Source: Psammoneis japonica (taxonomy: Eukaryota). Taken from it: DNA of 64,000 bases. A program made the position numbers and the translations under genes. The DNA is taken from contig QPGO01000039.1 in the NCBI GenBank assembly GCA_008632985.1, forward strand, positions 434,001 through 498,000, written 5' to 3'. Positions 648 through 55,499 of the stretch are shown one piece after another (within the stretch, counting starts at the first letter, position 1; each line of letters begins with the position of its first letter). Under the pieces are notes generated by a model. The model was not told the origin of the DNA. It saw nothing but the letters and a program-made list of their open reading frames with translations, and did no database searches.

Positions 648-2132
648 CACGCTTTTAGGTACTAGTATGGCTTTGGAGGGGAATGTGGAGCGTCTGCGTC
701 GTATCTCGCATCTTCTGAGCAAGGTACAGATCTTCGTGCAAACGCGTCGCGTCGTTTTTAGAAAAAGGAAGTGCTGGTTGCTGGTGCGTGGTGCTGAACG
801 TTTCGCTATTTTCCGACTTTACTTTTTTGTTCGTTCGTGAAAAAAGTTTATACTCTACGTACTAAAAGATCGCTTCTCTACTGGACTTTATCATACAGTA
901 CGTACAGTACAGTGGGGCCCTATCTAGATTAGAGAGGACAAAATTTCACGCTGAATCGAATGGGCCACTCTGATCTTCTGAAAATTGAGTCTTGGGAGTA
1001 TGTATCCTTTTGAGCAGGTCAATTATTTTCCCGCCAAAATACTTAATTAATTTAATTCAGCCGTTAAGTCTTGTAACAGCAGGTGCGTCGACCGACGAAA
1101 CCTCCAGACAACAATGTTGCAGGTGCAAACTGGTGGATGGCGTCACCTTCTTTGCTGCACCGCAGCTGGGAAGCTGTCGCGAAACGGACAGCAGCTGGCT
1201 CTCCACCTGGCTGCTCAAGAGAGCAGCTGGTCTGGAGCAGAGAGTGGACAAGCTCTGCAGTGGATGACCTGCAGCACTTCGCGTTGTGCAGCCATCCCAA
1301 GCGGGCTGTCACCGAGGGATTGGTGCAGGAAACACTGGGTTTTCCTGACGCATTGTCTTCAAACGTCGTTGCAACAATGTTGAAGGGCACCAGACAATGG
1401 TGCTGGTGGAGTCACATTTTTTGAGGTTTTTTAGCTGAGTCTGACCCACTTGCACGGATTGACAGCAAGCACACATGTCAAAGTGTCGCAAGGCAATGTG
1501 GTCAGAGTGCCCAGGTCGATGCCGACTGGCGCTGTCACTTGACACTTCAGGGGTGCACACAAGATGCCCACCAAGCTCCAGAGCAGATGGGTTGAGGCAA
1601 GCTGTTTTGTGCTCATGACAAAACAGGCCTGCACAGCCAACAAAGATTTGAGGCTTCTTGATGCCCAAGAAGTTGGGCAGCGCGCTGAGCACAAAACATC
1701 TGTGACACCAACAATCCAGGTGTCGCACTAGCCGTCAAGATTTCTTGAAATAAAACCCAACATTTTCTCCCTTTAATCCAAGATCGTGCTGATTTGACAA
1801 GTCAGCTTTTCTGAAACATTCAACAACAAACATCTGTGTTCCTCAGCTCAACTGTTTGCCCCCCCATCCGACAAGCCTTGTGTGTGTGTTTGGTTCTATT
1901 TTAATTTCTGGATTGTGCATTAATTGGCTTTCTGGATCAAAATCGTCGCCTGCATCCATCAATCTAGATTCTAATTGTTTTCTCAATTTTCTCTCCCTGC
2001 CCATTCCATCCTTCCTTCCCGTCCATCCGCACGTTGCATCTCTGTGTTTCTGCCCTCACTGTGTCCCCAAGTGATTGTTGCTGCACCCACTGTTTCCTTT
2101 TGATTCTCTTCTCAACTCCTTCGTCTGTGTAC

Positions 2133-5100
2133 ATGGCCATGTCGTCTGATGGTCTTGTTTGTCCATGGTGCAAACGAACCGGTTTCTTTTCCGAACGTGG
2201 CCTCAGCAGGCACATCGTAACTGACTGCCTCCGTTCCGCCGTTTCCACCAAGTCTTTCAGTTGTCCTCGTTGCAGACAACGTGGATTTGACTCTGAAAAC
2301 AATGTGCAGTGTCACCCATCTCGGCACTGCACCGCAGCATCTGGTCTCCCTCCCCCATTGACACAGTTGTGCCATGCAACCCAACAGTCTTCTTCATCCG
2401 GCGGAACATCTCTTTCCTCTCATCCTCTGGATTCTGCCTCCGTCGGCTCCCTTGGATCCAACACCAACAAACCCAAATGTCCCCATTGCCGTGTTCCCTT
2501 TTCAAACATTGCCCTTCATCCACAGAAGTGCTTGCCCTGCTGTGAAAAGGAGGAAATGTCCCTTTGCCTGCATGCCGCACCTTCCACTGCCACCCACGCA
2601 CTTCCCCCTCCAGACGACGACCATGATGAATCACTGGACGACCATGATGATCCTGCTGGGTTTGGTTTCTCCGACAACGAACCCCCCAACCCCTCCCCGA
2701 AGTCCTTTGGAATCCAGCTCCATCTCCTCCCACACCAACGGACAATTCTTCTCCAGCTTGTCCTCCCTCTGCCGGAAGTGGACTACGCCCACCCTCCGTC
2801 AGATGCTCTGGTCGATTGCGTTCAGCCGCCAATGCTGCTGCCGCTGGTGCAGCCTCCCAAAATGTCCGCCGATTTGTTTTGTTTGCAGATGATGGTGTGT
2901 CTGCCCTTGGAGAGGACAGTCCTGTGGATGTTCCTGAGTTCATTGGAGCCGACCGTCGCGATGGCAGTTGTGGCCCCCCCTCAATTTCCCATCCGACAGA
3001 AGATCCTGTTTCCTCCCTTGATCAACACAACCCTCTTGGCCCGCTGCGTGACATCGCACCCAATGAGGATTTTGATGTGCCTCCAGTCCACTCACCCAGC
3101 ATTGCACCCATGGTGCGTTTGCTGCATTTGTGTCGTTGGTCAGGTGTTGCAATTGACTTTGTCGACAAAGCAATGAGAATTTTGCATGAAGAGCATGCAG
3201 AAAAAAGACTGGATTTGTCAAAGCCACCCATCACTGCCGCCGTGGCGATGAAGCAACTCCTGGGGTTATTTCCCAATGTTCCTCTCCCCCACACTGCTGC
3301 TGTGATGCTAGAATGTAACAATCCAACACAGCAACAGAAGGATGGACCCAAATGTCGTCGCTCCCCACCTTTCCCGGTTTGCAGTTTCACCGAGACCTTG
3401 CAGGATCTCTTCACCGAGCCAGTGTTCCGTGATCTTTCCAAGTTGCAGGTTAATCCAAATGATGTCTGGTCACCTTGTGTGCCACCCCCCACCGACGGCG
3501 ATTTGGAACCCAGTGCCAGCCCGGCTGACGGTTTTGAGATGTCGTTCCCGGGTTGTCCTGGTGACTGGCGATTGTCCACTCAAAGTCAAGACATGGGTGA
3601 TGGCGAGTGGCAACAACGTCACACCAATGCCAAGGAAACGGCATCAGATTTTCACGCTCACCTTGTCAATTGCTCGGACAAGACCAGAGTCAATGCGGTC
3701 AATCCTCATGGGATGGAGCCTGTGATGTGCTCACTTGCCATGATTCAAGAGGATGCACGCCGTGACTGCCGTTGTTGGCGTCCACTCGGATTCACACCCA
3801 ATTTGGACAGGAAAGACAAGAAAGACAAGCTTGGGCACCTTGTTGTTGCCAACTGTCACCGCATTCTCAAGGAGGTCCTCCGTGGTCTGCTTCATTGCCA
3901 GGTGAATCCACCCATTGTTCATGCAACAATGGGCACTCAATGCCGCTGTGTCAGAGCTGTGACACATTGCAACTCCCTGTTGGGGGACATCCTCAATCAA
4001 GAATGCATTTGTGGAAGAGTCATGGGCCAAAGCAAGACCAAGAGGTTGTCTCACAACTGCCATGTGCCCTCCCACCGTTCTGAAGACCCCCTTCATGTCT
4101 GCCAATTTTTTAACCAAGCTTTCATAGAGTTGCTCACTGCAGCTGCATTGGGTCCGGATCCAGAGGATGACAACAGCCATTGGCACCAGCATGTTGAAAG
4201 CGTTTCCCGGAAACATCGTACAATGACATCAAAAAAAGAGGCTGAGACTGAGCTGGCTTCATCCCTCATTCGCCGAATGACTGCATGCTCCAAAATTTTG
4301 AGAAAAGTGTTTGGACAGCACGCAGTGGACAATGCTTGCTTTCCACTTAACATGGGCAACAACCCACGTGGTGCATTTGGCATGACCGTTGCTGACACAA
4401 TGCATGTGTTGGAGGCGGGCATTGTCCCTCAAATGATGGAGGCAATCATCGGAGAGATGTCTGCCAAACAGAAAGAGGAATGCGACCGCATTGCATCTGA
4501 GTCATTCTGCACATCCCATTGTCGTCCAGGTCACAGACATGACTGCCCGTGAGTTAGAGTTAACAGGGGACTTTCCACGATAGATCGTCTGGACAGGCAG
4601 GAACAAACAATGCTTCATGCCTCCATTTGTGCGCACAAACACAAAACATCACGTCCAGTGAAATGACAACAGTGCCTTCAGGACACTCGTTGGACAGCAT
4701 CTCCTCGAGTTGGTTCTGTGTCGCGTTGTTGTCAAAAAGCATTCACCCATTGCAGTTGTTGAAGAAAATCTTTAAGTTGTTCAGATGGCACAACTGATGC
4801 ACAGCATCGTCTTCAGAGAGGAAGTCCTGATTGATCAGGGTCGGAAAGCGACTGGCATTGTTGTGCCACATGGCATTGCACCACTGTGAGCCAAGATCAT
4901 GACGGGGACGGTGGAACTCGATGCTGCAGGCATTGCAGGCAGGAACAAGCAGACGACAGGCAATCGCAAAACCGCCAACACCACCACCAAAGTCGAGGAA
5001 ATTAAAATGGCTTCAAATTTGTGCCGCAAAGAGAGCGGGGTTACAAACAACCTCGGTGGAGAAGGCAAAGCTTGCCGCACCACCGTGTGATTCCACACCA

Positions 5101-5590
5101 CCACCAGCAAAACGACCAATTTGATCATCAATTGGCGGCATGTGATTGTGGCAGAGGGAACACGCGTTCCCATGACGGGAACGACTCACAACAACCATGT
5201 CTCATTGACAACAACACACTTCAGTGGACATTAAAGTGGATTGGAAAATTTGGGCAACAGAGAGAGCAATTGGACAAATGTGGCATCGGGGAAGCAGAGG
5301 GATGACCTGTTAAGACAGGCATGACAAATGGGAGGTTTGACACAACTCAACACACCAAATGAAGCAGATGTTGCATCAACAAGGAAGCGCAATGCATGCA
5401 TTGACACAAGGAGACACAACACATTGTTTGGCATTGATCCAAATGACATGGCAATCTTCATTGGTGCACTGGATTGGCCAACAAAGGTGCACAATTCAAA
5501 ACAGTGAAACGTTGATAGAAATGCAAACATGGGGTTGGGAATGAGCACTCAAAAATGATGCAAAGACCTGTTTGAATCGAGAGAGGACAC
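2133..5590 (+). mobile_element. Decayed Plavaka/CACTA-like transposase gene with N-terminal zinc fingers
   Basis: CPWC..GLSRH, CPRC, CPHC finger-like motifs. Core HLVNCSDKT...GMEPVMCSL...RCWRPLGFTPNL and TVADTMHVLEAGI resemble Plavaka-type YxDKT / EP / WRPLGYIP / DxMH motifs with Tyr->Cys/His. Frameshifts and stops are present; 3' end approximate. Confidence 0.65.
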
Positions 5591-5789
5591 GCGAGCAACG
5601 ACAAAACTGAGAAAATCACATGCAAAAGTGCGTTCTTTTTGCAACTTGCCTTTCACAAAGTGACAGGAAAGGATGGAAGTTCCAAACAAGAGGAAGCCAT
5701 GGGGAAGGCAAAAAAAAAATGGAGGATGCGGTTCTCACAGGAGTGACGGAGGGAAGAAGTGTAACTTCCAGCGGCAAGTGAGATTGAGA

Positions 5790-6970
5790 AAGGACATGAC
5801 AAAGAATTGCTGATGAACTAACACAATTGTTGGATTGATCTGTGTGGTGTCACATGAAGTCACCATGAGTCCTGCGGTGGTGGCCTTGTTGCATGCACAA
5901 AGAAACGAACATGGGGAATTGAACAGATTCCAGCATGCAGGTGGCGATTCAAGTTCGGTGGTGACTCCCACAGAGGGATGTCTTGTGTTGGATCGTGCAC
6001 CGGCGGTGGGCAAGAAATTGACAGCATCGATGTTGACCAAGGTTGTCAATGAGAGTGTTTGGCCATGTCGCAAGTTCACAATCTTCGATCATGAACTCAC
6101 CATGGGAGGAGATTGCATGAAATTGGTTCTGCAGGAGTCAAGGAGCATGGCGTCTTCACCGGAGAAGTTCTGGGAAGAATGCAAAGAGGAGTTCAGGACC
6201 AAACTCAACCGAAAGAGGAACAATGTGCAGGACAACATTGGGAGGAGAATGACAGGCAAGCAGATGTGTGCGTGCCGGTGATTGTGTTGGAGGCGATTGT
6301 CCAGCGGGATGAGTGTCTCTTCCTTTGCCATTGTCTGTGCAGTTGCTGCTTTAGAGGGATCGCCAGTGGCTTGCAAAGACTTGACAAAGGGAAGAAATGA
6401 CAAGGACACATGCGCGTGGTTCTTGGAAACTGTGGTGCCGACGGTGGTGGGACAAGCACAGTTTGGCAGAAGCACAACCGACATGCTTCAGGAATGGCTT
6501 TCGGTTTCGTCGGAGGCGTTTGCTCTGCTGGTGTGCTTGAACTGCTGCAACAAGGTGAAGGACATGGCAGAGAAATTGGAAAAGGAAGAAAATGTTGCAA
6601 GGAGAAGAAAGCCAACTGTGAAAGATGCTCTGCTCCTGCAAAGTGCACAGCGCAGGCAGCGGGGGAATCGGCAAAGAGGAGCCAAGGATGGAGCAAGGAG
6701 GGGATCAACAAGTGCAATGATCCATGTCAGTGGGTGGTGAAAGACAGAGAGAACAACCAGGGATTCGGTGCATGGTTCAAGGAGAGAAGGCGAGAGAAGA
6801 CAAACTTGTCTCAGGAGGAAAACAAGAAACGCAAAAGAGAGGAAAAAAGAAAGGAGAGAGAGGAAGGATGGGTGGCGCCAATGGGAGAGGACCCACCATT
6901 GCAGGTGGTGGCTGCAGGCAATGGAGCAGCAGCAAATGCCACAATGGCCACCAACCAAACTGGTGTGTAA
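5790..6970 (+). pseudogene. Decayed accessory gene of the Plavaka/CACTA-like element
   Basis: Fragments FWEECKEEFRTKLNRKRNNV, SVSSEAFALLVCLN, GWSKEGINKCND resemble the EAF...N / GWS.EG...YN accessory ORFs of such elements; same strand as the transposase. Confidence 0.5.
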
Positions 6971-7599
6971 ACTTAATTTGAAACAAACAATAAAATCTGG
7001 ACAAGTGAAAATTAAAAAAAACATTCTGCGATGCGGTTTGGATGCAACAACGTGTGGCAATTGGGAATTTGGATTTGAAAACGGCATGGCAAAGAGACAA
7101 AATGTAGGACGAGTTGGCAGAAAAGGAGGGTGGATTACAAGCAGCAACATTTGTGTTAAAAGAACGAGAAACCCCAAATGTCAATTGGGGTGCAGGTCTG
7201 CATTGTGTGAAAGGAATGACCACACTTAAAAGTGAGAAGCGATTTGGGCTTTAGAAGCTTATAAACTCACACAGTTCTCATGTTGTGTTTGAGGAGAGAA
7301 TTGGCTTGTAAGTCGACAACAATCTGGCATTAAAGTCAAGAAACACCCAGATTGTGGCAGACGGTCAGACCCAGATTATTGGCATCCCAGATGAAGGATC
7401 TCCACTCCCCAGACATTTGCAAGGCCACATCTGAAAATGCTGGTGGGCTTTTCTGAAAGCAGCTCCAGCTGAAGGGAGAGTTGTCTGTTGTGGCACACTG
7501 TGCCTGCAAAGAGCAAGAGTTGCCAAGGTGTGCACACCTGCCACAACCATCTGTCTTGGGCGTGTGATGTTGACTGTTGACAAGTGCAGCAAGACAGTG

Positions 7600-8600
7600 G
7601 AAGCTCAAGGCAGCTCTGGCTAAAGAGCACTGGGGTGTGACACAAAGAATGAGTGCATGCACAGACATTGCAGGAAAACAAGTTCAAGAAAAAGAAAAGA
7701 AAAGAGGAGTTGCTGGAGGCCGAGTCCTCGGCAGCACAGCAGAAATCATCCAATGGCAGCAGTGCTGATGATGGCAATGCTCCTGACAATGGCGCCACAC
7801 CTGCCAATGACTTGACTCTGCTGCTGTTGGCTCCTTCTGGGAAGACACAACAGTGCAGAACCTGCTCAATGCAGGTGATGGAGAAGGTGCAAAAAAAGCA
7901 ACCAAGAAACAAATGGATGTGAGTTGACTGCTGGATTTGCTTTTCATGGTGGATGGAAAAAGAAGTGATCAAAGGAGGCAATCCTGATGACCTTTGCATG
8001 TCCAACATTGCTCATGTGATTTGATTGTGATGCCAGCATTTTGCGATTGTGCTCAACTGTGCATTGAAGAGGCTGCCAAAAAGGAGTGCTGCATGGCTTC
8101 ACTGCTCTGTCAGCAGTGCACAATTGATGACCTCAGCAACACCTGTGGCAAGAAGCACATCCATGGATGAAGTGTAAACTTGTTGGGTTCATGACAGCAA
8201 ACCTTTCTTGTCTTTCAACCAAGGTTGCCACAGACCACTTTTGTGTTTTGTGATGCGCCTGTGCCAGAACTCTGTTGCGGAGGGAGAGTGACAACCATTG
8301 CAAGAGTGGGGAAGATGCCATTGAGTTGGAATGATGGCAGCTCTTGAATCAGTGTGTGGATTGCTGCTGACCAGCAATCAGGACCAACAGTGCATTCTTT
8401 CTTCCAATGCAGTTTCCAACTGGGCAAATCCATTTGGCTTCAGGTGTGGACCAAACAAAAAGATGTGTTGCACTGACAATCATGAATGTCCTGACAATGT
8501 GAGCTGTTGGAATGTGATGGTCCATCAACACTTGATGAAACAAGAATGAATCCTGTGTTGGGTGCAACTTCCAAAAGCAAATGCCATGGCTGGACCTGGT
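7600..8600 (+). mobile_element. Relic of a DDE transposase (IS630/Tc1-like 'YxDGHE..DV' type), N-terminal part
   Basis: NWANPFGFRCGPNKKMCCTDNHECPDNVSCW reads as W...GF.Y...KK.YY.D.HE..D.V.YR after reverting TA/CG changes. Confidence 0.45.
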
Positions 8601-8879
8601 TGAAGCTGAAGCTCTCCCAGCACTTTTGTGCCTTGGCTTCATGGCTGCAACCTCTGCATGTTTTTCTGTGCAAGCTCTGGTGCAGATGTGACCTTTTTCC
8701 AACAGTGTGAAGATGGTTCCTGCTGCCTGCCTGTTCTGAACATTTTTTCCATCCTCATGCCTTTGTTTCATTGTCATGAGCAAGCTCACGTGGTGGAAGC
8801 AAAACAACTGGCATCGAGCCCTTTTGGCTTGTTTGCTTGTCATTCTTCTTGGTGTCTTTTCTTCTCACGCGCAAAGTTT

Positions 8880-9345
8880 CTGCACAAATTTCAGCACAAA
8901 TTTTGTGTGTTCTGCAAGTCATTTCAGATGGATGACTTGCCAAACTGTCAATGGCTCTCTGTCCATGCCTCTCAAGTGTCAACAACCCCCCTTCTGCCTG
9001 TTGTCAATTTGAGTTCCCCCTGCTTTACATGGCAAACAAGCTTCCATTGTTGCTGCTCTCAGAAGTTTGACTTTGACACCTGACTGCTCAGTGCACTTTG
9101 GCCTTTCTTCCATCTGCTGACAATTCCACACAAGTTTCAGCACATTTTCCACATGTCTCAAAGGTCATTTTGGATGATTGACTTGCCAAATGGTCAACTG
9201 CTCTCTGCACATGCCTCTCAGGCATCAATGGCTCCCTTTCTGCTCTTTGTCTGCTCAACTTCTCTGCTTCATGTGGCAAACGATCCCCCATCATTGCTGC
9301 TCCCTGAAGTCTGAATTTGAGACCAGCTCAGTGTGAGTTGGTGTT
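8880..9345 (-). repeat. Two diverged ~245-bp tandem units, possibly decayed HMG-box-like coding repeats
   Basis: gtcattt..gatg..tgacttgccaaa..gtcaa..gctctctg..catgcctctca occurs near 8918 and 9164. The minus-strand translation REPLMPER...KMTFETCGK...ELSADGRK is weakly HMG-like. Confidence 0.4.
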
Positions 9346-12300
9346 TGCCTCATTTCCTCCCTTTTCTCCAGCCAAAACTTTTCCAGACTGCCTGTTTCAC
9401 CTTTGCAGCCAGATCTGATTCCAAGAAGAAAGCTCAATTGCAGCATCAAGTGCTTTGGTTGCAATGTCTCATTTTGCTGGTCCTGTTTTTGCCACTGCCA
9501 GCTGTTTCCGGTGGGCACCACAGACTTGTGGTGTCAAGCTTGTCCATCTGTTGTGCATCCCTGCTGCACCATGTGATGTGCTGGGGGTGTGGGTTGGCTT
9601 GTTGTGCTGGAGTTGCAGGGTGGAAGTGTGGCAGCACTTTAAAATGAATTTTGGGTTTGGTTTGTTTTTGTTTTTGAAGCTCTCCCAGCAAAAACAGGGC
9701 ATGAACACCATGTCAATGGAGAAGACTTTGTTCAGCATTGTGCCAATGCTGTCATTGACTGAACATCCAAGCCTTGCACACAAGCTGTCTACTGCCTGCT
9801 GTGACAGAGTGGGTTGAGCTTTGCAGAAATGCCACCCATTCTGTGTTTGCCCAAACTTGCTGCTCAAAACATGACATGTTTGAGTGATTGCTCACATTTG
9901 CCCAAGTTTTGGCAGATTTCATTGGACCATGACACAACTGTCAAATGCAAAAAGGGATGCACTGCTTGGACTGTTGGTGTTGGGTGTTGTGTTCTCACAT
10001 GCTTTGCCGCTGGCAACATGCAGCAACAAGATGCATTGCATCCAAGCTCTTTTTTTTAATGTTGGTTTTGATTGTGCCAGCAGAAAAAAGGAGGGGACTT
10101 GAAAGTGACTGTGCAACAGCTGGCCTGATGGTCCAGGAGGTGGCTGCTGCAGGAGCAAAGGGTGGGAACACATTGCAGCTGCAGGAGGGTGACAATGTGA
10201 CGCCGAGTGAGTGAAGCCAAGCTGAGCACTGCAGCTGGGCTTTGAGCCCAAAACCCTGCCAGAGAGAGACCAGCCAGAGCTCTGCCAGCTCCAGGTGCTC
10301 CTCCTCCCAGTCTGGTTTGGCTGCTCAAGCTGTGATGTGCTGACCCAAAGGCTGTGTTTGGGCTGTGTGGTGGGTGGGAGAGAAGAGAAGCTTGTCAGCT
10401 GGACTGCTTGCCTCAGACCCTGCACCATGAGTGAGCTCTGGAGAAAAGAATGAGAGACATTGCAGTGCTGCTGAGATGTTGAGTCACCTCCTCAGGGTGC
10501 ACAACAACTCTTGGGTGCTCCAATGTTGCTCATGGCTTCTTTGCTCTTCAACTGCACAAATGCACAAATGATGCCATGTGTTGAAAGCAGAAAGCCAATG
10601 TGCTGAAGTTGCAACCACCAACTCAGAAAATTGATGCAGAGCAAGCTCATTTGTGCATTTGTTTTCTGCACCAAAGCAATGGTGCCAAAGGCAAAGCAGT
10701 GGCAAATCCTTGTTTGCTGTTGACATTTCTTCATTGCTCAGAATTTAAAATCTGGATGACCACCAAACATTTGGCTGTGTCTTTGTGTCAAAGTGGAGGC
10801 AGTGCTTGACAATTTGCACCGTCATTCAGCCAGCTTCTTGCTCTGACTTGAAGTTGAACAGGCACTTGATGATTTGCACTGTTCACATGGCATGTTCTGG
10901 CTCTGTGTCATTCAATGAGATGGGTGATGGGCTTGTCATCAACCAGCCACCAGAGCATGAAATTTTTGCCAATTGGAGGGTTTCTAATGTAAAAACTGGA
11001 CAAACAAATGATGAACAACAAACATTTTCAGTCAAGTCACTCACAAAAAGTGATTGTCTTTGAGTGTCTGTCACACGGCAGATTGTCAAACAGTGTGGGA
11101 CACCACACACAATGACAGTGCTGATGTGGGCAGTCATCCTTCAAGTGATTGTGCCATGTGTGTGGGGCATGAATTGCGCCACGCGCCACAAGGTCATGCC
11201 ACACATGGCACATTTGTTGCACACACAAAGGGGCAATTTCCAGAGTCATCACACACATGCCCAGCTTTAGACTGCTGTGATGCAGCAGCATGTGCCATGT
11301 CCAGAGACAACAGATCTTGCCAGCAACAAGGGCAGTGAACACAGAAATTGTAAAGGTGCTCCAAGCAAAAAGAAGTGGCACCATCAGCTGTTGCTTGTTT
11401 CCCATCTCTCTGTTGTCTTTTCTTCTTTTTTGCAGTGCAGTGGCTGTGACCCCTCCCCACCTCTTGTTCAGAAGTTTGCCTTTTGTCACAAGCCCATTTC
11501 ATCCACTTCCTTTCTGCTGCCATGTCAGGCACAATGGTCAAAGCATTTTGCTTTTCAACTTTTGCACAAAGTGCCTTGAGTTGGCAATGCAAGAGAAGCT
11601 GCCCCCAAGCTCTGGCAGCTGGGTTTGGCTCAGCTGTTGCTTGGTGCCTCACCTGGCCAAGGTTGTGCAGAGTTGATTTGCTTTTCTTTGCATGGCTTCT
11701 TGACTCCATTCATGTCACCCTGACAAAAACAAGCTTGCATTTTCTCACATTGCTTCTGCTGCTGCCCACCTTGTGCTGGCACATGCCGGGGGGCATTTCT
11801 GGCCACATCGTCAGATGCAGAGCCCAAAACTTGCTCTCTGTTCACCTTTTCATTTTGCCATTGCTCCATCTGCTTGCTGCTCCAGTGCACAGAGTCGCTT
11901 TCTGCTGCTGCTGCTGCTGCTCTTGCCACTCTTGGTGTTTCTGCAAGGCATTGTGCTGGGAGCTCTGCACCAAAATTGCACAAAGAAAATTTTCTAGCTC
12001 CACAGCAAGGTTGTGGAGCATGCTTGCCCTCATCATTTGTGACAGAAGCAGCACAGGGCATTGGAGAGACATCTTTGGCAAGTTCCAGTGCTCTTCCATG
12101 CTTCTTGGAAATTGCAGCAAGTGTGTTGAGAGACAGTTTTTTGAGAGGCACCAGCTCTCAACAACAAAATTGGATGACACCCCAAAGCAGTGTTCAAAGC
12201 GCTTTGTGTGGGGTGCTGCTTGGGGCCATGGACAACCTTCTCAGCAGCTGGCCAGCTGGGATGGTGGTGAGCTCCTGCTGGGCTGCACTGCAATGCATCT

Positions 12301-13989
12301 CAACTGGCTGCTTGCTTTTGCCCCCCACAGCAATTTCACAATTTTCATTTTTGGCACTTTGTTCATCCCTTCCACCTCCTGTTTTTTCAAGTTACAGCAC
12401 ACAGGGCTCTCTGCGAGGAGAGCTCCAGTGCTCAGCACCACCCTGGCTTTTTGCTCTGCCACCTGCAGCCATCAGCTCTGTGGCTGCTGGACATCTGCCT
12501 GCTTCTGCACAAACTCCTTGTCATCTGTGCATCATGCTTTGCTTCACACAAAATTGTTCCTTGTCCTTGAGTGCAGGCTTTGGCAACAGGTGCTTGTGAA
12601 ATGATCAGCTCACACACCACATTAAAATCTCAGTTGCTTTTGCATGCTGACTTTTGCTTTGCTTCAGCTGAAGCCAGCCAAAACCTGCTGGCCACACCCA
12701 GCCAAAAAATGCCTGTTGCACCCCTTGTTTTGCACCCAAAAGGCCAACAAACAACAAACATGCCCTGTTTGTGCAGAGCCAGTGCATTGACAAACACTGC
12801 ATTAGAGGCAGGCACCATGTCAAGCACTGAAGCTGCACACAACATCCCATGGGGAGCAAAATGAGAATTTTGGGGCACAAGTTGCCATGGCAGTGTGTGG
12901 TGTGTGGCAGTTTTTGACAACTTCTCTTGACTTCATGAGTCTTAACCCCAGAGAATGAGGGTGCCACTCCATTGTTGACCAACTGTGAAATTCACCAAAA
13001 CAAGCTGTGGTGACTCCAGAGAGGTGACTCAACTTCGACCAAGCTTCCATTGGAGTGACTTGGGCAAGTGTGTTGCACCAAGCAGCTGGACAAAACAAAA
13101 GCCAACAAAAGCATTGCTTTTCACACTGCACAAGACAATCACAGACAAGGTGGAAAAGAAAACCTTTTCAGCAGCAGCAAAAAAACATGGAAGAACAGAT
13201 TTCAGCCACTTGACACACACACCATTTCTGACTGGATTTCATGGACAAATTCCAGAGTTGCAACTTTGTCCCAATCCCAAAACAGCACCAACAAAAAAAG
13301 TGCAACCCTCTCCAGCTTTAAAAGCTGGCATCATTTCAATGTTTTGAACATGGTTGGAGTGAACAATTTGCAAGAAAGCAACTCAGCACTTTGACCCTGA
13401 TCTTTTTTTCTTTTGAAAGGTGCAACAGCATCAAGGCTGCAACTGACACTGGCACTGACTTCTTCTCCTGCTTGGAACTCCAGTGTCAGAAAGAAGAAGT
13501 GTGTGTCCATCACATTCTTTTTTGCAGTTTGGAAGCTGTGCCTTGTTCTGTCTCACAAGCACTTTGTGACCAAATCAAATTGAGTGGGAATGTTCTGTTC
13601 ATGCTGAAACCACAGCCCAAACTTGACAGAGCTGGAGCAGCAGTGTTTTGAGCAGTGAAAACAAAAAAAACCTTTTGAACTGCAGATCTCTCAACAAATT
13701 TGTTGCCATTGTGCAACATGTCACATTGGCGGCCACAAGCTGTGAGTGACCACCATGTGGCACTGGCAAGGTTCTTTGCATTGAGAGTGTGCACACCCAA
13801 CTTGTGACTCTGCATGCACTTGCTGTGGCTGGCAATTGGCAATGGGGTTGGGGGGCAACAGCAGCAACAAGTTCTTGCCAACAGAGGCAGAAGCCCGCTC
13901 TGCACACTGTTGGCAAGATCAAGTGGGTTGACCTCTCACTCATTTTTTGATTTGCTGTGTTGGCAATGGCATCAAAAGTGCTGGTGATG

Positions 13990-15330
13990 AGCACCCCATG
14001 ATGGGTGCAAAAAAGTCCATGCTGTGTGTTGGTGGCAAGGGCCTGAGGCACAAACTTGTCTGTGCCCCCCTCCCCCAGCATGGGTGCATTGGAGCCAAAA
14101 AACAAAGGCAATGAGTGTCCAGCAGAAGATCAAGGGAACACCTGCATCATGTTGGGCATGTCTTGGGACATGGGTCTGTGCTCCATTTTGGCATCTCAGC
14201 AACTGGCGGCATGCCCAGCAGTGGCAAAAGGATCACAGTGCATTGTGCTGACAAGAGGTCCCAAAGTCAGCAACAGCCTCAAAAACCAATGACAAACAAT
14301 GTCCAACTCTTGCAAATGGTGACCACAAAATGCTCAAATGGGGGTGTGCAACATTTGCTCAATGTGCCGCAATTGACACAAGCCAGCAACAACAGAAGAA
14401 GGCACAAAAAATGAAAAGCAACAGAGAGACACAAACTTTTGGTGGTGACAAACTCCCAACAAGCCAGTTTGCCAATGTGTCTTGTGCATGTTAAAGTGGC
14501 TCACACTGCATGGACTGGCACAGAGAAGAGCCTGTTTGATGCACGCCGCCACACCTTTGCAAAAACATCTCCCAGCCCATCTCTTTCTGCTCTTCTCTCC
14601 ACAGCACACCTTCCCGAATTTCCAGTTTAAGAAAATCCAACAAGTTGTTTTTGTGGTGGACATTTTTGTGAGAGAGCATTTTCTGCTGCACCAAGTCAGG
14701 AGCACACATGCACAACAACAGCAACAGCATGAAAAAAGCACAGTTGACACAAGTGCCCAATGATGGAAGCCAAGGTCCACAGTGCTGTGTTGGCAAGGGC
14801 CTGAGGCACAAACTTGTGTGTCTGGCCCTGGCACAGCATGGGTGTGCTGGCACAATGACACAAAAAAAGCCAAGGATGAGTGTCCAGAAGAAGCTCAAAC
14901 AAACAAAAATGTCTGCATCATGTTGCTGGGGGTGTCTTGAGGAACAAAAATCTGCTCACTTTTGGCAGGCACAGCAATGAGCACCCCCAGCAGCAGCAAA
15001 GGTCCACAGCACACTGCGCAAGGCCCTGATGGGATGAACTTGCGCACAGAGGTTTGGCACCGTGACATCAGCTGGTCAGCAGCAACACACTTTTAAAATT
15101 CAAAATGGCAACAAATGTCCCAGCTCTTGCAAAAAACAAGGTTTGCAAATTTGCTCAATGTGCTGCGCCACATTCTTTGATGAGGAACCAGCAAAAAGGT
15201 GCGTCAAAAAGCAACAACAGGTGCAAACTTCTGGTGGCGCGGCAAAGAAGAAATTGTGCACGTGCCAAAGAGTGGCTCATGGCGAGGGGGTGACATCTCT
15301 GCTCCTCCACACACCTTCCCGAATTCCCAG
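13990..15330 (+). repeat. Two diverged copies of a decayed unit (starts ~760 bp apart)
   Basis: tggcaagggcctgaggcacaaacttgt at ~14033 and ~14791; atgagtgtccag at ~14111 and ~14876; cacaccttcccgaatt at ~14605 and ~15310. Confidence 0.7.
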
Positions 15331-15563
15331 GATGCTTGACGTTTGCTTGAGTCGTCGTGTGTGTGGCGCCTTGGAAACTCGCAGCGCGGGCAGACAGACG
15401 TAAACGCACAGCCAAACAGACACGCCAACAAAGCCGATGCACGACAGCCACCAGCCGCACGTTTCAACAATACCTCTGCAACAACAACAAACCCGTCTGT
15501 TGCTACGGTGTTGCTTGAAACAAACAGTTGAGTTTGTAACTTCACTATACTACTACAACAAAC

Positions 15564-27699: not shown

Positions 27700-29100
27700 C
27701 ATCGCTCGTCGATGCGACGCGCATCATCACAGATTCAGTTTGGACGTTGTTTTGACGACGTTGTGACGATCCATGTCGTGTGTTACAGCTCAAGGGCCAA
27801 ACAAGTCTTTTTTTTTTTAACAATGGCCACCTGTCAACAACAATGCCACACTGGCCACAAAACAGCTGGAAAGCACTTTTTTTGAGATGAGCTGGCCCTG
27901 GCGGCAAGCGGCAGATGAGACAGCAGAGATGGCAGCCAGCTTGGCTCACTTCGCTGTGTGTCATTGTGCATTGCTCACCTGCAGATTCATTTCAATCAAT
28001 GAAACACGAGCAAGACATGTTGTTCTTGTTTGAGGCTCTGGCCAACCAAAGCCCCCTCCTTCTTCCACATGCTATGGCTGCACCACACACTGTGCCCCTG
28101 CCTGCCCCCCTGGCTGGCTGGCCAAGACAGAAAACTTCTGCACTCAAGACCCGTAAGAGGTGGGTGCTCTCTGACTTGGAAAAGTGTGCCAAGGACATCA
28201 AAGGTGCCTCAGAATTAAGACAGCAGCACTCCCAGCTTGCTCATGATCTGGAACAAGAGAGCCGTGTTTTCTCCCCCACCCCGCCCATCATTCACCAGAG
28301 AGCTGCTTCCTCATGCTTCATGCTGTGCTGCACGCCTTTTTTGCTCATGACAGAAGATTCCATGCCACCATCCTCTGGTCTGATGATGATCTCCACAACA
28401 AGTTCATTGCCTCCAATGATGTGAGACACCTGCTTCTCCCTCTGGGCGCTGCTGTTGCTGATGCCACAATGCAAAACAAGGCATTGCTTGCATGAAGCAT
28501 CATTGAGCAACATGAAGAGCTGATGACCAGCAGTGTCTCTCCAAGCCAACAAATGCTCCATCGCCAACAGAGGAGTTGCCACACCCACTGGTCTTTCAGC
28601 CTGGCTGCTTCCCAATTCTGCAAGCAACTCATGATCAGGGCAGCTTGAAACTGAGCACAGCACACCATCCTCAAGAGGAGCAGAGGAGAGAGGTTTTGAT
28701 GTCTTCCAGAGTGTGGTGCTCAAGCAAGGTGTTTTAGCATGGCAGCAATCCAAACTGGAAAGTTCTTGTGGAAGATTGTGGTGACCTCCCAAACAACTTT
28801 TTAGAAATGACTTTAGCAGCTGTCTCATTGATTGCTCTCATCCTCCAATCTCACTGGGAAACAATGAGACAATGAAACAGCACATCTGCTTCAGCCATCT
28901 GCCAGCACTTGTGCAAGTGAAAGAAGTCAGGTGAAAGTGTGGACAATTGCTTCTGACAATGTGATGAAAAGGCACAAATGCAAAACCTGGTGCAAAGCAA
29001 TGGAAAGGCTCAACAAATGACAGACTCCTCATGTGCAGCAGCAACTGTCATCTTCTTTGGTGACAACACACCCTTGCATGTTTGTGGGCTTCTTGCCTTT
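27700..29100. pseudogene. Hypermutated block 2: small island with an unidentified decayed coding relic
   Basis: TpA/CpG-poor, TG/CA-rich sequence between two normal genes; interrupted + strand reading frames. Confidence 0.7.
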
Positions 29101-39273: not shown

Positions 39274-40239
39274 TCCACATCATGGCAATCTATCAAAAGC
39301 AAGAAAAATTCAACCTCGTTCGGTCCGTCATCCGTCCGTATAAACTACTAAACAGCACACGCGCTCATCACCGCAACGATAAAATTGTTGAAAAACCCGG
39401 AGATTGGCCATCCCGTCGTCCGCCCTCCGCCCGGTCATGGTTCTGGACTCCTTTTTATCATTGACACTCGACCATGGTGCCGCTCCGCTGTAAACGGCTC
39501 GCTTTTCATGCTCTTGCTTGATTGTTCACTTTCGGCAATGTAGACTGGTTGCTGGTCATGGGAAAGCGTTTCTTCAGCGCCATGGCAAGCCGCTGCCGGG
39601 AGCCGACGATTGATGAACGACGAATGCCAACATGCTCTGGATTCGCCACAGCATGCTGTCCCGCCCCTTGCACCCTCTGTTGGAGCATAAGTACTTCGAG
39701 TCCCATTGAAAATAGAAAGGACGACGCTCTAAGACACATTCGATCACATTCTACGGATGGGCAGCAGGCTATTTATCCTGTCGGACCACAACGATAAGGA
39801 GACAGATCGACAAACGGACAAGCAATCATAATTTGCGAACTCCAACAAATCCGCGATTGCACATCAGTATCATTTCTACGGTCAATGCATATATTTGAAA
39901 TCATGTCCAGTGATGCTCAAGACTCCCATTCAGGCTGCAAGGGTTTTTGATCCAGTAGGCTTGTATGATCATTCTACTACTCAATCTGTTAAATGTTAGA
40001 GGGTAGACGTCGAAATTGCGAAGCCTGGTTGCCGTGTAGAAACTACTTCTATGTTGATCGCAGTATTGTGAAACAGTCAAGCACAAAACAACAAACCTCT
40101 TCTTGTGTAAGTAGTAACAAATAACGCTGAACTGCAATCGACTTAGATACATGCATTCATCTCCATTGCTTTATCTCTATGAATTTCTGTTTTCCAGGTA
40201 AAAGCGCAAAGCGATCAAGTCAACAAAGAAAACTGAATA

Positions 40240-41629
40240 ATGAAGACCATCATCTTTGCTGTGGCCGTGGCTAGTCTTATCTCTTGCCATGGCGTACATG
40301 CATACTATCCCGAGGGATTTGAGACAGTCACTTGCGAGTACGAAGAGTCTCTCGAGAAGTTAATTGAGGCCGCCGAGGACATCCCAAATTATGTTGATCC
40401 ATGGAACGTCCAAATGTCCTGGAACATGATTTACAATGCGAGAGACGCAAAAACGGAGATCGAGGCTGGAGACGCACTTGCGTCACTTGAGGAGCTCCAA
40501 GCAGTGACCTCATGGGCCCGAAGGATTATCGAAAGAGAGAATTGTCAGACGCGTTACTGTTTGAAAAACCTACATGACATTAGTCAACAGGCTAGTGACG
40601 CGGCCATTGAATTGCTTGAAAGGATGCTCGTGGATATGGCCTATATTATAGGCCCAACCTCTCGTGTCTTCGGCCTGGATGAAGAAGCTCGAAGCCACCG
40701 AGACGGGAGGAGATGGTTTGAATCTGTGTGGACTGTTCAGCGAGGCGTCAGCCTCATACTTCAGCTTATCGGGGAAACTGAATTACCTGTTTGCGATGAT
40801 TATGATGGGATCCCTACGAGCGCTCACTATCCTAACGGCTTCTGCTATGGCACCCCCTTTACTCTGAATGGCAACACGGCAGATTATCCTCGCTACCTGG
40901 GTTTTCAGGATCAGTGCGCCATGCGCTTGACTCCCGACGAACGGGGATATCGTGCTTCATCAGCCTTCATGCGGATGAGAATGAAAGAGGGATTTTCCTT
41001 CTCTGCGCAGTTGGGGTATCGCATTTTTGGTGATCGTCATGGCCAAGGCGATGGAATGACATTCACAATGCACCAGGATCCTCGCGGCGTAAAAGCGCTT
41101 GGGTTGACAGGCGGTGCGCTGGGTGTGTATTCCGAATCATCGCAGTCGTCTCACATTCCCCCGATTTCGCCGTCGCTTGTCGTCGAGATGGACACACGTG
41201 AGTACAGTGTTGATTCGGTCGTTTCCCTTTAAATTGAAAATGAACGTCCAATCCGAACGATACTGACTCATTTCGAATTGCTTTTTGATCCAGAAAATAA
41301 TCCTGGGTATGGCGACAGGGGCGAATACCAAATTCATGTCCTACTCGTCCACACAGGAGGTCATCGCGAGCATCTTGCCCAGGAAAGGCTTACTTCCATA
41401 CAGGACAGGAATCACAGGATCTCTTCTAGTCTTGTATGATGGAGAAAGTTCGACCCTCAGGGTGCGTCACACATCAGATGACTATTTTCTCAGACGTCCA
41501 GTCATCACGACCCATGTAAACTTAGCCAGCTTCTTCACGGGTCGCCAAGTTTTCGTCGGTGTCACTGCAGGCTCGTGGAACTTTGCTGTTGACAATCAAG
41601 ACCTCACGTCTTTTACCTTCTCCCAGTAA
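40240..41629 (+). CDS. Secreted protein with N-terminal helical region and L-type (legume-like) lectin domain; intron ~41198-41293
   Basis: Signal peptide; GDGMTFTMHQDPRG..ALG..GGALG, LVVEMDT, VFVGVTAGS; GTGAGT...CAG intron; apparent frameshift near 41395. Confidence 0.8.
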
Positions 41630-41710
41630 ATGGGTTCACACCATTCATGTCCCCGTGTTCTAATTTCCCAGCCACGGGGATTCATGACACGTTACGTCGT
41701 GATGCGACCA

Positions 41711-42225
41711 TCTACATCCAAGAGATCTATACATCCCTGGAAACGGGGATTCATGAGACTTCGTTTACATTCTTGTACCTTGGAATCTTTCTGTCAGTTT
41801 AAGGATTCATCAAGGTTTACATATTCGGCTCCTTCGCTTCTACATCCAAGAAATCTATATCTCTCTGGAAACGGGGATTCATGAGACTTCGTTTACATTC
41901 TTGTACCTTGGAATCTTTCTGTCAGTTTAAGGATTCATCAAGGTTTACATATTCGGCTCCTTCGCTTCTACATCCAAGAAATCTATATCTCTCTGGAAAC
42001 GGGGATTCATGAGACTTCATTTACATTCTTGTACCTTGGAATCTTTCTGTCAGTTTAAGGATTCATCAAGGTTTACATATTCGGCTCCTTCGCTTCTACA
42101 TCCAAGAAATCTATATCTCTCTGGAAACGGGGATTCATGAGACTTCATTTGCATTCTTGTACCTTGGAATCTTTCTGTCAGTTTAAGGATTCATCAAGGT
42201 TTACACATTCGGCTCTTTCGCTTCT
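41711..42225. repeat. Tandem array, 4 x 128 bp
   Basis: ggaaacggggattcatgag recurs at 41739, 41867, 41995 and 42123. Confidence 0.95.
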
Positions 42226-42349
42226 CCTCTTAGGAACAAATAAATATGATGTTGCGTCTTCGCTTCTGTCTGTTCCAGGTCCTTGGTTTGGACGATATGT
42301 TTGACAGTAGGTTAAAGACGCAAATCAAGTTACACAATGCTTTTCACAA

Positions 42350-42460: not shown

Positions 42461-43463
42461 GGGCCACAGCACAGTACGTTGAGAGCGGAGTGCAGCAACA
42501 CAACTGCTCTATCACTCTTTCTCCACTACCAAGAGAGAGAGAGTGCTAACAGCGCTTTTTCGCGAGCGAAAACACCAATGACAGGGGCACTCCACTAGAA
42601 GCCCGCAATGGGCCGGCAGACAAAGCGACAATTCAGCCATCTCAAAACTGAAAAATGGCACTAAACGAACAGAGAATCGGCAGCAAATTTTAAATGCAGC
42701 GTGCATTTGATCTGTTTCTCCCTCTGTCCTTTGTCCAGTGCAGAGGGAGTCAACATTTGACAACCATGATGCTGGTTGCCTGGCAGCAGTTGTTTGCTTG
42801 TCTTTTGTGTTTTCAGCAAGAGAGCAGTTGATTTGCTTGCAACATCACTTGTTCCATGACCCACACTCTCTGCCAGACTGGACAAGCTGCAGTCTCTCTG
42901 GTGGGAACCTGCTCTCTCCATTTTCTGGAGTTGGACATGGCAACTTGCCGGAACAGAAACTCCAGCACTCCGGAGATGGCTCTCTTGCTGTGCCAGGCAG
43001 CCGGGTTGCCCGCCTGTGCCCAGGTGCACACACACACGCACCCTCCCGTGCAAGCCTGCCTGCAATTGCCAGCAATCAGTGCCTGCTCTCCTTGTCATTT
43101 TTTGTTCCTTGCATGTCAAGATGACATGATGATTGAGCATCTCTCCCAGAGATCAAGGTCCAGAGTTGTTGCTGGTGACAGATGGGCAGCCCACACCACA
43201 CAGGCACACCATCAACAAATTCTTGGTTTGCAACACAGCACATGGAAAACTGGAAAATGTTTGAAAACACAGGAGAAGAACTGGAAAGCCCCACAACCAG
43301 GCTTTGATTGCAGCTGCTGCATGATTTGTGCATCTCATGGCTGGCTGGAGGAGACACGGTGTGCCACCCATCACTTGCTTTTGACAGCACCAGGAGATCC
43401 TGGCAGGTGCCCAGTGCAAGACATCCAATGCAAGAAAATGTGTGCCATCTTCAAAAGGTGTGG

Positions 43464-55475: not shown

Positions 55476-55499
55476 TGTTGGCACCTGCTCTGGAGGTGG

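What the first reader, a model, noticed from the sequence alone, without database searches (positions are those of the whole stretch)
1080..7000. TpA loss is decoupled from, and apparently precedes, CpG loss
Seen: the Plavaka-like element (1.1-7 kb) and the block at 62.6-64 kb lack most TA yet keep many CG (gccgaccgtcgcgatgg; gacactcgcatccttcgtcg). In contrast, 7.3-15 kb and 45-59 kb lack both. Inference: there are two processes with different kinetics, the TpA one being faster; TA/CG state could order the ages of insertions.
Basis: partly seen in the sequence, partly recalled or inferred. Interest (0 to 1): 0.75.

Follow-up and report, generated by a model that had tools for sequence, protein, structure and literature searches.

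The report
TpA erasure outruns CpG decay
In silent stretches of this diatom genome nearly every TA step has been mutated to TG or CA well before the slower, familiar decay of CG steps, so the two marks together give a rough order of ages for dead transposons and dead gene copies.

Summary
The Plavaka-like element (1101-7400) and the block at 62401-64000 have TA at 0.18-0.20 and CG at 0.60-0.76 of the window's background density. Blocks 7401-15200 and 44451-58950 have lost both (0.06-0.10). Of 127 500-bp windows, 16 are TA-low with CG kept and 0 are the reverse. An intact/eroded paralogue pair fixes the direction as TA to CA/TG and CG to TG/CA.

A repeat cluster at 43463-44493 serves as a clock. 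Since its copies split, every inferred TA site was converted independently, but only 1 of 24 CG copy-sites and 2 of 108 other sites changed.

I read this as two real mutation processes on the same silent domains. One is a fast TpA eraser, of the kind measured so far only in Bigelowiella natans (bioRxiv 10.64898/2026.01.13.699255). The other is slower CpG decay. One refinement: TA in TTAA and CTAA/TTAG resists and decays no faster than CG.

Using TA/CG state to order ages is plausible but only qualitatively supported here. Missing CG methylation, rather than youth, cannot be excluded.

Earlier notes of this scan made the same claim on at least seven other pieces of this genome.

The parts
1101..7400 (+). 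Dead copy of a many-copy Plavaka-like DNA transposon. TA is nearly erased (0.18 of background density) and CG is about 60% kept.
   Evidence: Searches give the composition; summed contig depth is 1767-4872 here against about 52-96 in single-copy bins.
2651..4552 (+). Transposase-like ORF of 633 codons without a single Tyr codon.
   Evidence: Pfam PF18759 Plavaka, E 1.5e-6, 28.1 bits against a cut-off of 26.3; 527 homologues at E<=1e-3; 0 Tyr against 1.3-3.7% in 11 homologues; 4 of 4 conserved Tyr columns are Cys; His 29, Cys 29, Arg CGN 32.
7401..15200 (.). Old block that has lost both TA (0.06) and CG (0.09). It holds a fragment of a FAST-kinase-like gene copy at 13224-13640.
   Evidence: none of the ORFs scanned here reaches a Pfam gathering score (one weak Tmp39 match, 19.5 bits against a cut-off of 28).
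15201..15400 (.). Margin with TA erased but CG intact.
   Evidence: TA 0 against 8 expected (P 2.7e-4); CG 14 against 11 expected.
27701..29050 (.). Small island with TA at 0.14 and CG at 0.29 of background, an intermediate CG state.
42701..43500 (.). Fully eroded flank: TA 0 of 33 expected, CG 0.16 of background.
43463..44645 (.). Cluster of repeat copies that serves as an internal clock. A 110-bp unit is present four times, there is a 236-bp pair, a 41-N gap lies at 44038-44078, and there is a palindrome with about 230-bp identical arms. TA is erased and CG is kept (0.86).
44451..58950 (.). Old block that has lost both TA (0.08) and CG (0.10).
   Evidence: the repeat pair 47211/51187 has 23 swapped CA/TG sites against 63 shared.
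52682..55439 (+). Eroded duplicate of the lectin-like locus. It is the 'after' state.
39475..42299 (+). Intact copy of the lectin-like locus with normal composition. It is the 'before' state used to fix the direction of change.
62401..64000 (-). Gene-like ORF (62990-64000, runs off the window) with a thrombospondin type 3 repeat. TA is at 0.20 and CG at 0.76 of background.
   Evidence: PF02412, E 1.3e-6; 2 Tyr in 337 residues, and repeated DGKLHF/DGKLIF/DGKLLF motifs.

Best explanation
Two separate, real mutation processes act on the same sharply bounded silent domains of this diatom genome.

Process 1 is a fast hypermutation of TpA to TpG or CpA (A:T to G:C transitions). It spares TA in TTAA and CTAA/TTAG. 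It has the same signature as the TpA-restricted hypermutation measured in Bigelowiella natans. Its enzyme is unknown; adenine deamination in a 5'-TA context is the leading guess and is inferred, not shown.

Process 2 is the slower decay of CpG to TpG/CpA. This is what deamination of 5-methylcytosine would give, since diatom transposons are CG-methylated; that link is also inferred.

Because process 1 saturates first, young silenced DNA is TA-free but CG-rich. This describes the Plavaka-like copy, the repeat cluster at 43.5-44.5 kb, the gene-like block at 62.4-64 kb and the 200-bp margin at 15.2-15.4 kb. Old silenced DNA has lost both.
For: Direction of change. In four alignments of normal against eroded paralogues, 62 of 95 TA sites are CA or TG (7 kept) and 109 of 137 CG sites are TG or CA (5 kept). 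The total of pyrimidine-purine steps stays at 228-260 per kb in all segments of 450 bp or more, as interconversion by transitions predicts.

The loss is mutational, not ancestral composition. The transposase ORF has 0 Tyr in 633 codons against 1.3-3.7% in 11 homologues. All 4 conserved Tyr columns are Cys, and His and Cys are raised.

Different kinetics in the same DNA. The 236-bp pair 43463-43698 / 43802-44037 differs at 13 positions.
- 10 of these are 5 CA/TG swaps.
- 1 is CG against TG, and 2 are other changes.
- 11 CG sites are shared, and 1 TA (in TTTAAA) is kept.
- Five swaps imply about 10 ancestral TA sites, and the background density predicts 9.7.
- In the 4-copy unit there are 7 swapped sites showing all three 2:2 partitions, 3 CG sites kept in all copies, 2 CG sites partly converted, and 1 of 44 other sites variable.

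One-sided pattern of states. Of 127 500-bp windows, 16 are TA-low with CG mid or high, and 0 are CG-low with TA mid or high.

Series of segments by CG kept: 0.86, 0.76, 0.60, 0.29, 0.16, 0.10, 0.09. Fast-context TA is at or below 0.15 in all of them. Slow-context TA falls along with CG (rho 0.75, P 0.05).

Rate ratios, as -ln survival, are 6.9 and 4.5 in the two large partial segments. The steady-state counts in the old blocks (CA+TG 5225, CG 118, fast TA 22) give about 5.4.

Age proxies agree.
- The Plavaka family has about 30-80 copy-equivalents at 85% likeness or more.
- The young cluster shows about 2% other divergence.
- The old paralogues show 15.6%, and none of the ORFs scanned in the fully eroded blocks reaches a Pfam gathering score.

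Not an artefact. Fates of TA sites show no runs by strand (30 runs against 32 expected). Depth is not halved in the eroded single-copy part (72-96 against 52-72), and contigs of X1 match it.

Precedent for a TpA-only process. In B. natans, 210 of 211 and 20 of 20 new mutations in two regions were A to G or T to C, all at TpA, with u(AT>GC) 6.85e-7 against u(GC>AT) 3.9e-9 (Results read).

CG methylation of diatom transposons is DNMT5a-dependent in P. tricornutum (passages read).
Against: - The evidence comes from one window, and only three or four partial segments are effectively independent.
- The ancestral composition of the Plavaka-like copy and of the block at 62.4-64 kb is unknown. Their CG 'loss' (0.60, 0.76) is inferred from the CA+TG budget, from 3 of 16 conserved Arg columns reading His or Gln, and from one site where 10 contigs of other copies have CG and the window has CA.
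- CG survival by flanking context in partial against full segments correlates only weakly (rho 0.52, P 0.13).
- A tandem duplication inside the old block gave no ordering (TA same 3, different 3; CG same 5, different 3).
- The clock copies lie beside an assembly gap and a perfect palindrome, so their arrangement is uncertain.
- The runs laid are contigs, probably from the assembly's own sample, so they are not independent.
- In P. tricornutum only 14.9% of annotated transposons lie in DNMT5-dependent regions. Unmethylated but TA-targeted DNA could therefore keep its CG whatever its age.
- The estimated TA:CG ratios range from 4.5 to over 30. This fits an episodic TA process but prevents a calibrated clock.
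Confidence: 0.72

Rival explanations
1. The difference is in targeting, not in kinetics. The TpA eraser marks all silent or foreign DNA, while CpG decay occurs only where CG methylation is laid down. On this view, TA-free, CG-rich segments are unmethylated rather than young.
For: In P. tricornutum only 14.9% of annotated transposons lie in DNMT5-dependent methylated regions. The 200-bp margin at 15201-15400 has TA erased and CG intact next to a fully eroded block. The TA:CG ratios are not constant between segments.
Against: Partial segments do show CG deficits (0.60, P 2e-15; 0.76, P 0.013), and their CA+TG excess is larger than TA loss alone explains. The three age proxies point the same way. 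Even in the CG-rich cluster, CG is lost faster than other sites: 1 of 24 copy-sites against 2 of 216.
Confidence: 0.17
2. A single dual-specificity editor, for example an ADAT2-like deaminase acting on both A and C in DNA, produces both losses. It simply prefers TpA.
For: The TA-poor and CG-poor domains share boundaries to within 50-200 bp. The preprint cites an amphioxus ADAT2 that edits both A and C in DNA (as cited there; that paper was not read).
Against: B. natans hypermutable regions show virtually no C to T changes. The ratios vary from 4.5 to over 30. The fate of a TA site is not associated with the fate of the nearest CG site (15/12/15/13, Fisher P 1.0). CG decay needs no new enzyme if the DNA is methylated.
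Confidence: 0.07
3. The pattern is not mutation in place. Either it is ancestral composition of the elements, or it is a sequencing or assembly artefact of modified bases (for example modified T at TpA and 5mC at CpG being misread).
For: The assembly has a gap and a perfect palindrome in one block. The only runs found are probably the assembly's own sample.
Against: - Conserved Tyr codons read Cys, and the ORF has 0 Tyr of 633.
- An intact paralogue in the same window has normal composition.
- Swapped CA/TG sites make up 23 of 86 CA/TG sites between eroded copies, against 2 of 145 between copies in normal DNA.
- The fates of TA sites are interleaved rather than in strand-wise runs.
- Contig depth is not halved, and a 3370-bp contig agrees with the window except at 2 letters.
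Confidence: 0.03

Closest known systems
TpA-restricted hypermutation of integrated giant-virus and virophage DNA in Bigelowiella natans (Mettrop et al., bioRxiv 10.64898/2026.01.13.699255; abstract, Results and Discussion read)
   Same: A:T to G:C transitions occur only at TpA and give TpG/CpA. They are confined to bounded regions of silent or foreign DNA. The long-term footprint is TpA depletion with CpA+TpG enrichment, seen also in transposon-type coding sequences.
   Different: - The host here is a diatom, a stramenopile rather than a rhizarian.
- The targets are a DNA transposon, repeat blocks and dead copies of host genes, not viral inserts.
- Erosion is near saturation (TA o/e 0.04-0.13, against Rho 0.45 in the viral region there).
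- It is accompanied by later CpG decay.
- It shows a flank rule that spares TTAA and CTAA/TTAG.
- The preprint's text contains no 'CpG', 'diatom', 'flanking' or 'trinucleotide'. Its supplementary tables could not be opened.
- No rate was measured here.
Methylation-driven CpG decay of CG-methylated repeats. Diatom transposons are CG-methylated through DNMT5a (Hoguin et al. 2023, PMC9998398; passages read).
   Same: CG to TG/CA transitions in silent repeats. The steady-state count suggests a rate roughly 44 times that of an ordinary transition (rough inference).
   Different: Methylation of these particular blocks was not tested. CpG decay explains none of the TA loss.
Repeat-induced point mutation (RIP) of ascomycete fungi and the TCG-type hypermutation of some basidiomycetes (Horns et al. 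2012, PMC3318451; seen in a search listing only)
   Same: Dense transition mutations confined to repeats and silent DNA, which inactivate transposons.
   Different: RIP turns CpA into TpA and so creates TA and lowers GC. Here TA is destroyed and GC is unchanged. RIP mutates both copies of a duplication, whereas here the copy at 39.5-42.3 kb is untouched while its duplicate 13 kb away is eroded.

Membership tests
TpA-restricted hypermutation (B. natans type) | Changes are A:T to G:C transitions at TpA, giving TpG or CpA. | tested here: met
   62 of 95 TA sites of the normal copies read CA or TG in the eroded copies. 4 of 4 conserved Tyr columns read Cys.
TpA-restricted hypermutation (B. natans type) | Confined to bounded regions, while the rest of the genome keeps normal TA. 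| tested here: met
   Five TA-poor blocks with boundaries at 50-bp resolution. TA in sensitive contexts is present within 35-75 bp of the left edge of the Plavaka-like copy.
TpA-restricted hypermutation (B. natans type) | No accompanying excess of C to T changes. | tested here: inconclusive
   Old blocks have also lost CG. In the young cluster, however, TA is erased while 23 of 24 CG copy-sites remain, so the TA process can run without CG loss.
TpA-restricted hypermutation (B. natans type) | Directly measured de novo rate about 1000-fold above background, present in only some lines. | not testable with these tools
   Needs mutation-accumulation lines. Only a long-term ratio of about 238 ordinary transitions per fast-TA loss could be inferred.
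Fungal RIP | C to T changes at CpA (or TCG) that create TpA and lower GC. | tested here: not met
   TA is destroyed, CA+TG rises to o/e 1.8-1.9, and GC is 0.47-0.51 inside against 0.45-0.48 outside.
Fungal RIP | Both copies of a duplication are mutated. | tested here: not met
   The copy at 39475-42299 has normal composition while the copy at 52682-55439 is eroded.
Methylation-driven CpG decay | CG to TG/CA transitions. | tested here: met
   109 of 137 CG sites.
Methylation-driven CpG decay | The affected DNA is CG-methylated. | not testable with these tools
   No methylome is available. This is known only for transposons of another diatom.
Plavaka / KDZ-type DNA transposon | Transposase domain PF18759 above Pfam's gathering score. 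| tested here: met
   28.1 bits against a cut-off of 26.3, E 1.5e-6. The match is weak, and the six best homologues give no Pfam family at E<=1e-5.
Plavaka / KDZ-type DNA transposon | Terminal inverted repeats and a target-site duplication. | tested here: inconclusive
   No convincing terminal pair was found. The best near the ends is 21 nt at 76% (1435-1455 / 7354-7374). Erosion may have erased them.

The most novel reading that the evidence does not exclude
Diatoms and chlorarachniophytes share a dedicated, domain-targeted DNA editor. It would be an adenine deaminase or a thymine-modifying enzyme acting at TpA, with a footprint that spares YTAA sites, and it would disable newly silenced transposons and gene copies within a short time. 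Its output, together with CpG decay and the slow TTAA/CTAA class, would form a three-speed molecular clock. That clock could date when each piece of DNA was silenced, across a whole genome.
Probability: 0.3. Interest if true: 0.85.

Novelty: new member of a known kind. Interest (0 to 1): 0.62.

Why it matters
A TA-specific DNA hypermutation has so far been measured in one alga, in a 2026 preprint. Finding its saturated footprint in a diatom, on transposons and on dead host-gene copies, suggests a widespread genome defence in marine protists, if the two lineages share one mechanism.

Showing that it runs ahead of CpG decay has two consequences:
- Mechanistic: the two losses have different causes.
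- Practical: TA-erased elements keep long open reading frames, because TAA and TAG stops cannot arise. They therefore look intact to annotation pipelines. The combined state of fast TA, CG and slow TA could order silencing events in time.

The flank rule (TTAA and CTAA/TTAG spared) is a testable fingerprint for candidate enzymes.

Tried and rejected
- No whole genome is held for this window.
- The word-index homology search with the transposase ORF found nothing. The exhaustive search did.
- ARAGORN and Rfam found no RNA gene in the window, although the repeat at 43.58-43.65 kb looks like a tRNA-type box A/box B; that motif is recalled from memory.
- No Pfam family reached its gathering score in the ORFs of the fully eroded blocks. 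I scanned 148 of the 156 ORFs of 90 codons or more. The 8 dropped were 2651-4549+ (already scanned), four ORFs spanning or beside the N gap (43308-44294+, 43529-43864-, 43868-44308-, 43953-44417-), and 54128-54397-, 54562-54834- and 54662-54982- to stay under the limit.
- A tandem duplication inside the old block, with the intact copy as outgroup, gave no ordering of TA against CG conversion.
- Tests for strand-wise clustering of conversions and for linkage between TA and CG fates were null, so they do not discriminate between an adenine and a thymine mechanism.
- CG survival by flank in partial against full segments was not significant.
- Run X3 laid nothing, and X2 covered only 9 of 30 bins. 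Read laying printed only 40 of 534 differing places, so copy-by-copy states of the Plavaka family could not be read.
- No terminal inverted repeats were found for the element.
Full report
**What is there**

At 1-kb scale the window alternates between two kinds of DNA.
- Normal DNA has TA o/e 0.5-0.7, CG o/e 0.9-1.2 and CA/TG about 1.2.
- The other blocks have TA nearly absent and CA/TG at 1.6-2.0.

A two-state segmentation puts the TA-poor blocks at 1101-6950, 7401-15400, 27701-29050, 42701-58950 and 62401-64000. The CG-poor blocks are at 6551-15200, 27801-29100, 42701-43500 and 44451-59000.

Relative to the window's own background density (41.1 TA and 54.1 CG per kb), the segments are as follows.

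| Segment | Description | TA | CG |
|---|---|---|---|
| 1101-7400 | Plavaka-like element | 0.18 | 0.60 |
| 62401-64000 | gene-like block | 0.20 | 0.76 |
| 7401-15200 | old block | 0.06 | 0.09 |
| 44451-58950 | old block | 0.08 | 0.10 |
| 27701-29050 | small island | 0.14 | 0.29 |

**The organism**

The arginyl-tRNA synthetase ORF at 16077-17711 has its best named matches only in diatoms: Pseudo-nitzschia, Fragilaria, Nitzschia, Seminavis, Thalassiosira, Cyclotella and others. None is above 70% identity. No whole genome is held for the window.

**Direction of change**

The window holds an intact lectin-like locus (39475-42299) and an eroded duplicate (52682-55439). It also holds an eroded fragment (13224-13640) of a FAST-kinase-like gene (22787-23204). 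Over the four alignments:
- 62 of 95 TA sites of the normal copy read CA or TG in the eroded copy, and 7 are kept.
- 109 of 137 CG sites read TG or CA, and 5 are kept.
- Divergence at all other sites is 15.6%.

The total of pyrimidine-purine steps (TA+CG+CA+TG) is 228-260 per kb in every segment of 450 bp or more. The two short segments give 193 per kb (400 bp) and 250 per kb (200 bp). This is what interconversion by transitions predicts. Both losses are therefore transitions converging on CA/TG.

**The Plavaka-like element**

The ORF 2651-4552 matches Pfam Plavaka just above the gathering score, at 28.1 against 26.3 bits. It has 527 homologues at E<=1e-3, the best at 41% identity. The six best homologues themselves give no Pfam family at E<=1e-5, so 'Plavaka-like' is a distant assignment.

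Its composition is distorted.
- It has no Tyr in 633 codons, against 1.3-3.7% in 11 homologues.
- All 4 conserved Tyr columns read Cys.
- His and Cys are raised to 29 each.
- 32 of its 42 Arg codons are still CGN.

The TA loss is therefore mutational damage to a dead copy, not native composition, and CG is largely retained.

Contigs of run X1 pile up on 1335-7337 at summed depth 1767-4872, against 52-96 on single-copy bins. This is a family of roughly 30-80 copy-equivalents at 85% likeness or more. Of the 512 places that differ, 419 are transitions.

The stretch 6951-7400 belongs to the same high-copy element. 6 of its 14 TAs are in TTAA or TTAG.

**Is CG really being lost in the partial segments?**

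The evidence is indirect.
- CA+TG in 1101-6550 is 200.9 per kb against about 150 in normal DNA. This excess of about 50 exceeds the TA deficit (about 36) by roughly the CG deficit (about 19).
- 3 of 16 conserved Arg columns read His or Gln.
- At 6102 ten contigs of other copies have CG where the window has CA.

The ancestral CG content of the family remains unknown.

**An internal clock**

At 43463-44493 a 110-bp unit occurs four times, and a 236-bp stretch occurs twice.

The 236-bp pair differs at 13 positions.
- 10 form 5 adjacent CA/TG swaps, 1 is CG against TG, and 2 are other changes.
- 11 CG sites are shared.
- One TA, in TTTAAA, survives in both copies.

If an ancestral TA resolves to CA or TG at random in each copy, 5 swaps imply about 10 ancestral TA sites. 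The background density predicts 9.7.

Reading the swaps as former CG sites would need two classes of CG. About ten sites would be converted in both copies and eleven in neither, with only one in between, which a single rate cannot give. This is my own arithmetic.

In the four copies there are:
- 7 swapped sites showing all three possible 2:2 partitions, so the conversions were independent;
- 3 CG sites kept in all copies;
- 2 CG sites partly converted;
- 1 variable site among 44 others.

So, since the copies split, about 20 of 20 TA copy-sites, 1 of 24 CG copy-sites and 2 of 216 other copy-sites changed. That puts TA at least about 9 times faster than CG on conservative bounds, and over 70 times as a point estimate. 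Both figures are my arithmetic.

One caveat applies. The copies lie beside a 41-N gap (44038-44078) and a palindrome with about 230-bp identical arms, so their arrangement, though not their sequence differences, may be an assembly product.

**Swapped CA/TG sites as a hallmark**

Swaps are a mark of conversion in place.
- Between eroded copies they make up 23 of 86 CA/TG sites (47211/51187), 7 of 41 and 9 of 36.
- Between copies in normal DNA they make up 2 of 145 and 0 of 40, even at 19% background divergence.

**The window-wide pattern is one-sided**

Of 127 non-overlapping 500-bp windows, 16 are TA-low (<0.2) with CG mid or high, and 0 are CG-low (<0.25) with TA mid or high. The 200-bp margin at 15201-15400 has 0 TA against 8 expected (P 2.7e-4) and 14 CG against 11 expected.

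**A refinement: flanks matter**

Survival of TA in the fully eroded blocks depends on its flanks.
- It is 0 for ATAC/GTAT (0 against 198 in background) and for ATAT.
- It is 0.01-0.10 for the other contexts that have a pyrimidine after TA on one strand.
- It is 0.42 for TTAA and 0.46 for CTAA/TTAG.

In the paralogue alignments, 3 of 10 slow-context TAs are kept against 4 of 85 fast-context TAs (P 0.024).

Ordering the seven eroded segments by CG kept gives the following.

| Segment | CG | Fast TA | Slow TA |
|---|---|---|---|
| 43501-44450 | 0.86 | 0 | 0.94 |
| 62401-64000 | 0.76 | 0.15 | 0.56 |
| 1101-7400 | 0.60 | 0.10 | 0.78 |
| 27701-29050 | 0.29 | 0.06 | 0.82 |
| 42701-43500 | 0.16 | 0 | 0 |
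| 44451-58950 | 0.10 | 0.03 | 0.48 |
| 7401-15200 | 0.09 | 0.02 | 0.37 |

Slow TA falls with CG (rho 0.75, P 0.05). There are thus three speeds: fast TA first, then CG, then slow TA.

Ratios of -ln survival are 6.9 and 4.5 in the two large partial segments. The steady-state counts in the old blocks (5225 CA+TG, 118 CG, 22 fast TA) give about 5.4. The larger ratio in the young cluster suggests that the TA process comes in bursts, as in B. natans; this is an inference.

**Artefact?**

If modified bases were being misread, reads from the two strands would give long strand-wise runs of CA or of TG, and depth would be halved. Neither is seen.
- The fates are interleaved: 30 runs against 32 expected for TA, and 52 against 55 for CG.
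- Depth in the eroded single-copy part is 72-96 against 52-72 next door.
- A 3370-bp contig of X1 agrees with the window except at 2 letters.

The runs are probably the assembly's own sample, so this is a check on the consensus, not independent material.

Among the 8 differences printed for 7.4-15.4 kb, 5 are CG against TG/CA, 1 is TA against TG, and 2 are other. This fits ongoing decay, but the table was truncated to 40 of 534 places.

**Mechanism**

The following points are shown:
- transitions at TA and at CG;
- conversion in place and independently per copy;
- sharp domain boundaries;
- different speeds;
- a flank rule;
- only one copy of a duplication is hit, so the process is not RIP-like homology sensing.

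The following points are inferred:
- The TA process is enzymatic. The preprint proposes an ADAT2-like adenine deaminase. A thymine-modifying enzyme is my alternative.
- The CG process is deamination of 5-methylcytosine in CG-methylated silent DNA, as DNMT5a-dependent methylation of transposons in P. tricornutum suggests.

The strand tests gave no handle on which base is attacked.

**Comparison with what is known**

The only report of a TpA-restricted DNA hypermutation that my searches found is the B. natans preprint. I read its abstract, Results and Discussion.

Earlier notes of this scan reported the following on other pieces of this genome:
- the same TpA-first pattern on at least seven pieces;
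- the TTAA survivors on two;
- the lectin pair in this window.

I re-derived each of these here. They are not independent evidence.

**Verdict**

Two qualifications remain. TpA loss has a slow sub-class, and the use of TA/CG state as an age order still needs a genome-wide test and a methylome.

Noticed in passing
window 18421-20256 (-), 23063-25438 (-), 29369-31255 (-): Three paralogous intron-poor genes with FAST_1 and RAP domains lie in a row, with internal repeats of about 110 and 330 bp in the middle one. This is a local expansion of organellar RNA-binding-type proteins.
   Followed up: no
window 43580-43650 and 43920-43990: The repeat carries a stretch resembling tRNA-type box A and box B promoter elements (motifs recalled from memory), but ARAGORN and Rfam find no RNA gene. 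It may be a tRNA-derived SINE or an eroded tRNA gene.
   Followed up: partly
window 44079-44645: A palindrome with about 230-bp arms that are 100% identical lies directly after a 41-N gap, and its centre has diverged by CA/TG swaps. It is either a very recent inverted duplication or an assembly product.
   Followed up: partly
window 41711-42225: A tandem array of a 128-bp unit (94-98% identical copies) lies in normal DNA just downstream of the lectin-like gene. Its eroded counterpart is at 55228-55439.
   Followed up: no
window 62990-64000 (-): A gene-like ORF with a thrombospondin type 3 repeat and four repeats of a DGKL[HIL]F motif. His may stand where a Tyr once stood. It has only 2 Tyr in 337 residues. 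TA erosion therefore also hits non-transposon coding DNA.
   Followed up: partly
window 7338-12006: The left part of the fully eroded block is itself a mid-copy repeat (summed contig depth 214-984 against about 52-96 in single-copy bins). 12007-15341 is single-copy.
   Followed up: no
fully eroded blocks 7401-15200, 27701-29050, 42701-43500, 44451-58950: CG survival also depends on flanks. It is lowest in TCGA (0.03) and CCGA/TCGG (0.04), and highest in GCGC (0.33) and CCGC/GCGG (0.23). This is reminiscent of the TCG preference reported for some basidiomycete repeats; that paper was seen in a listing only.
   Followed up: partly
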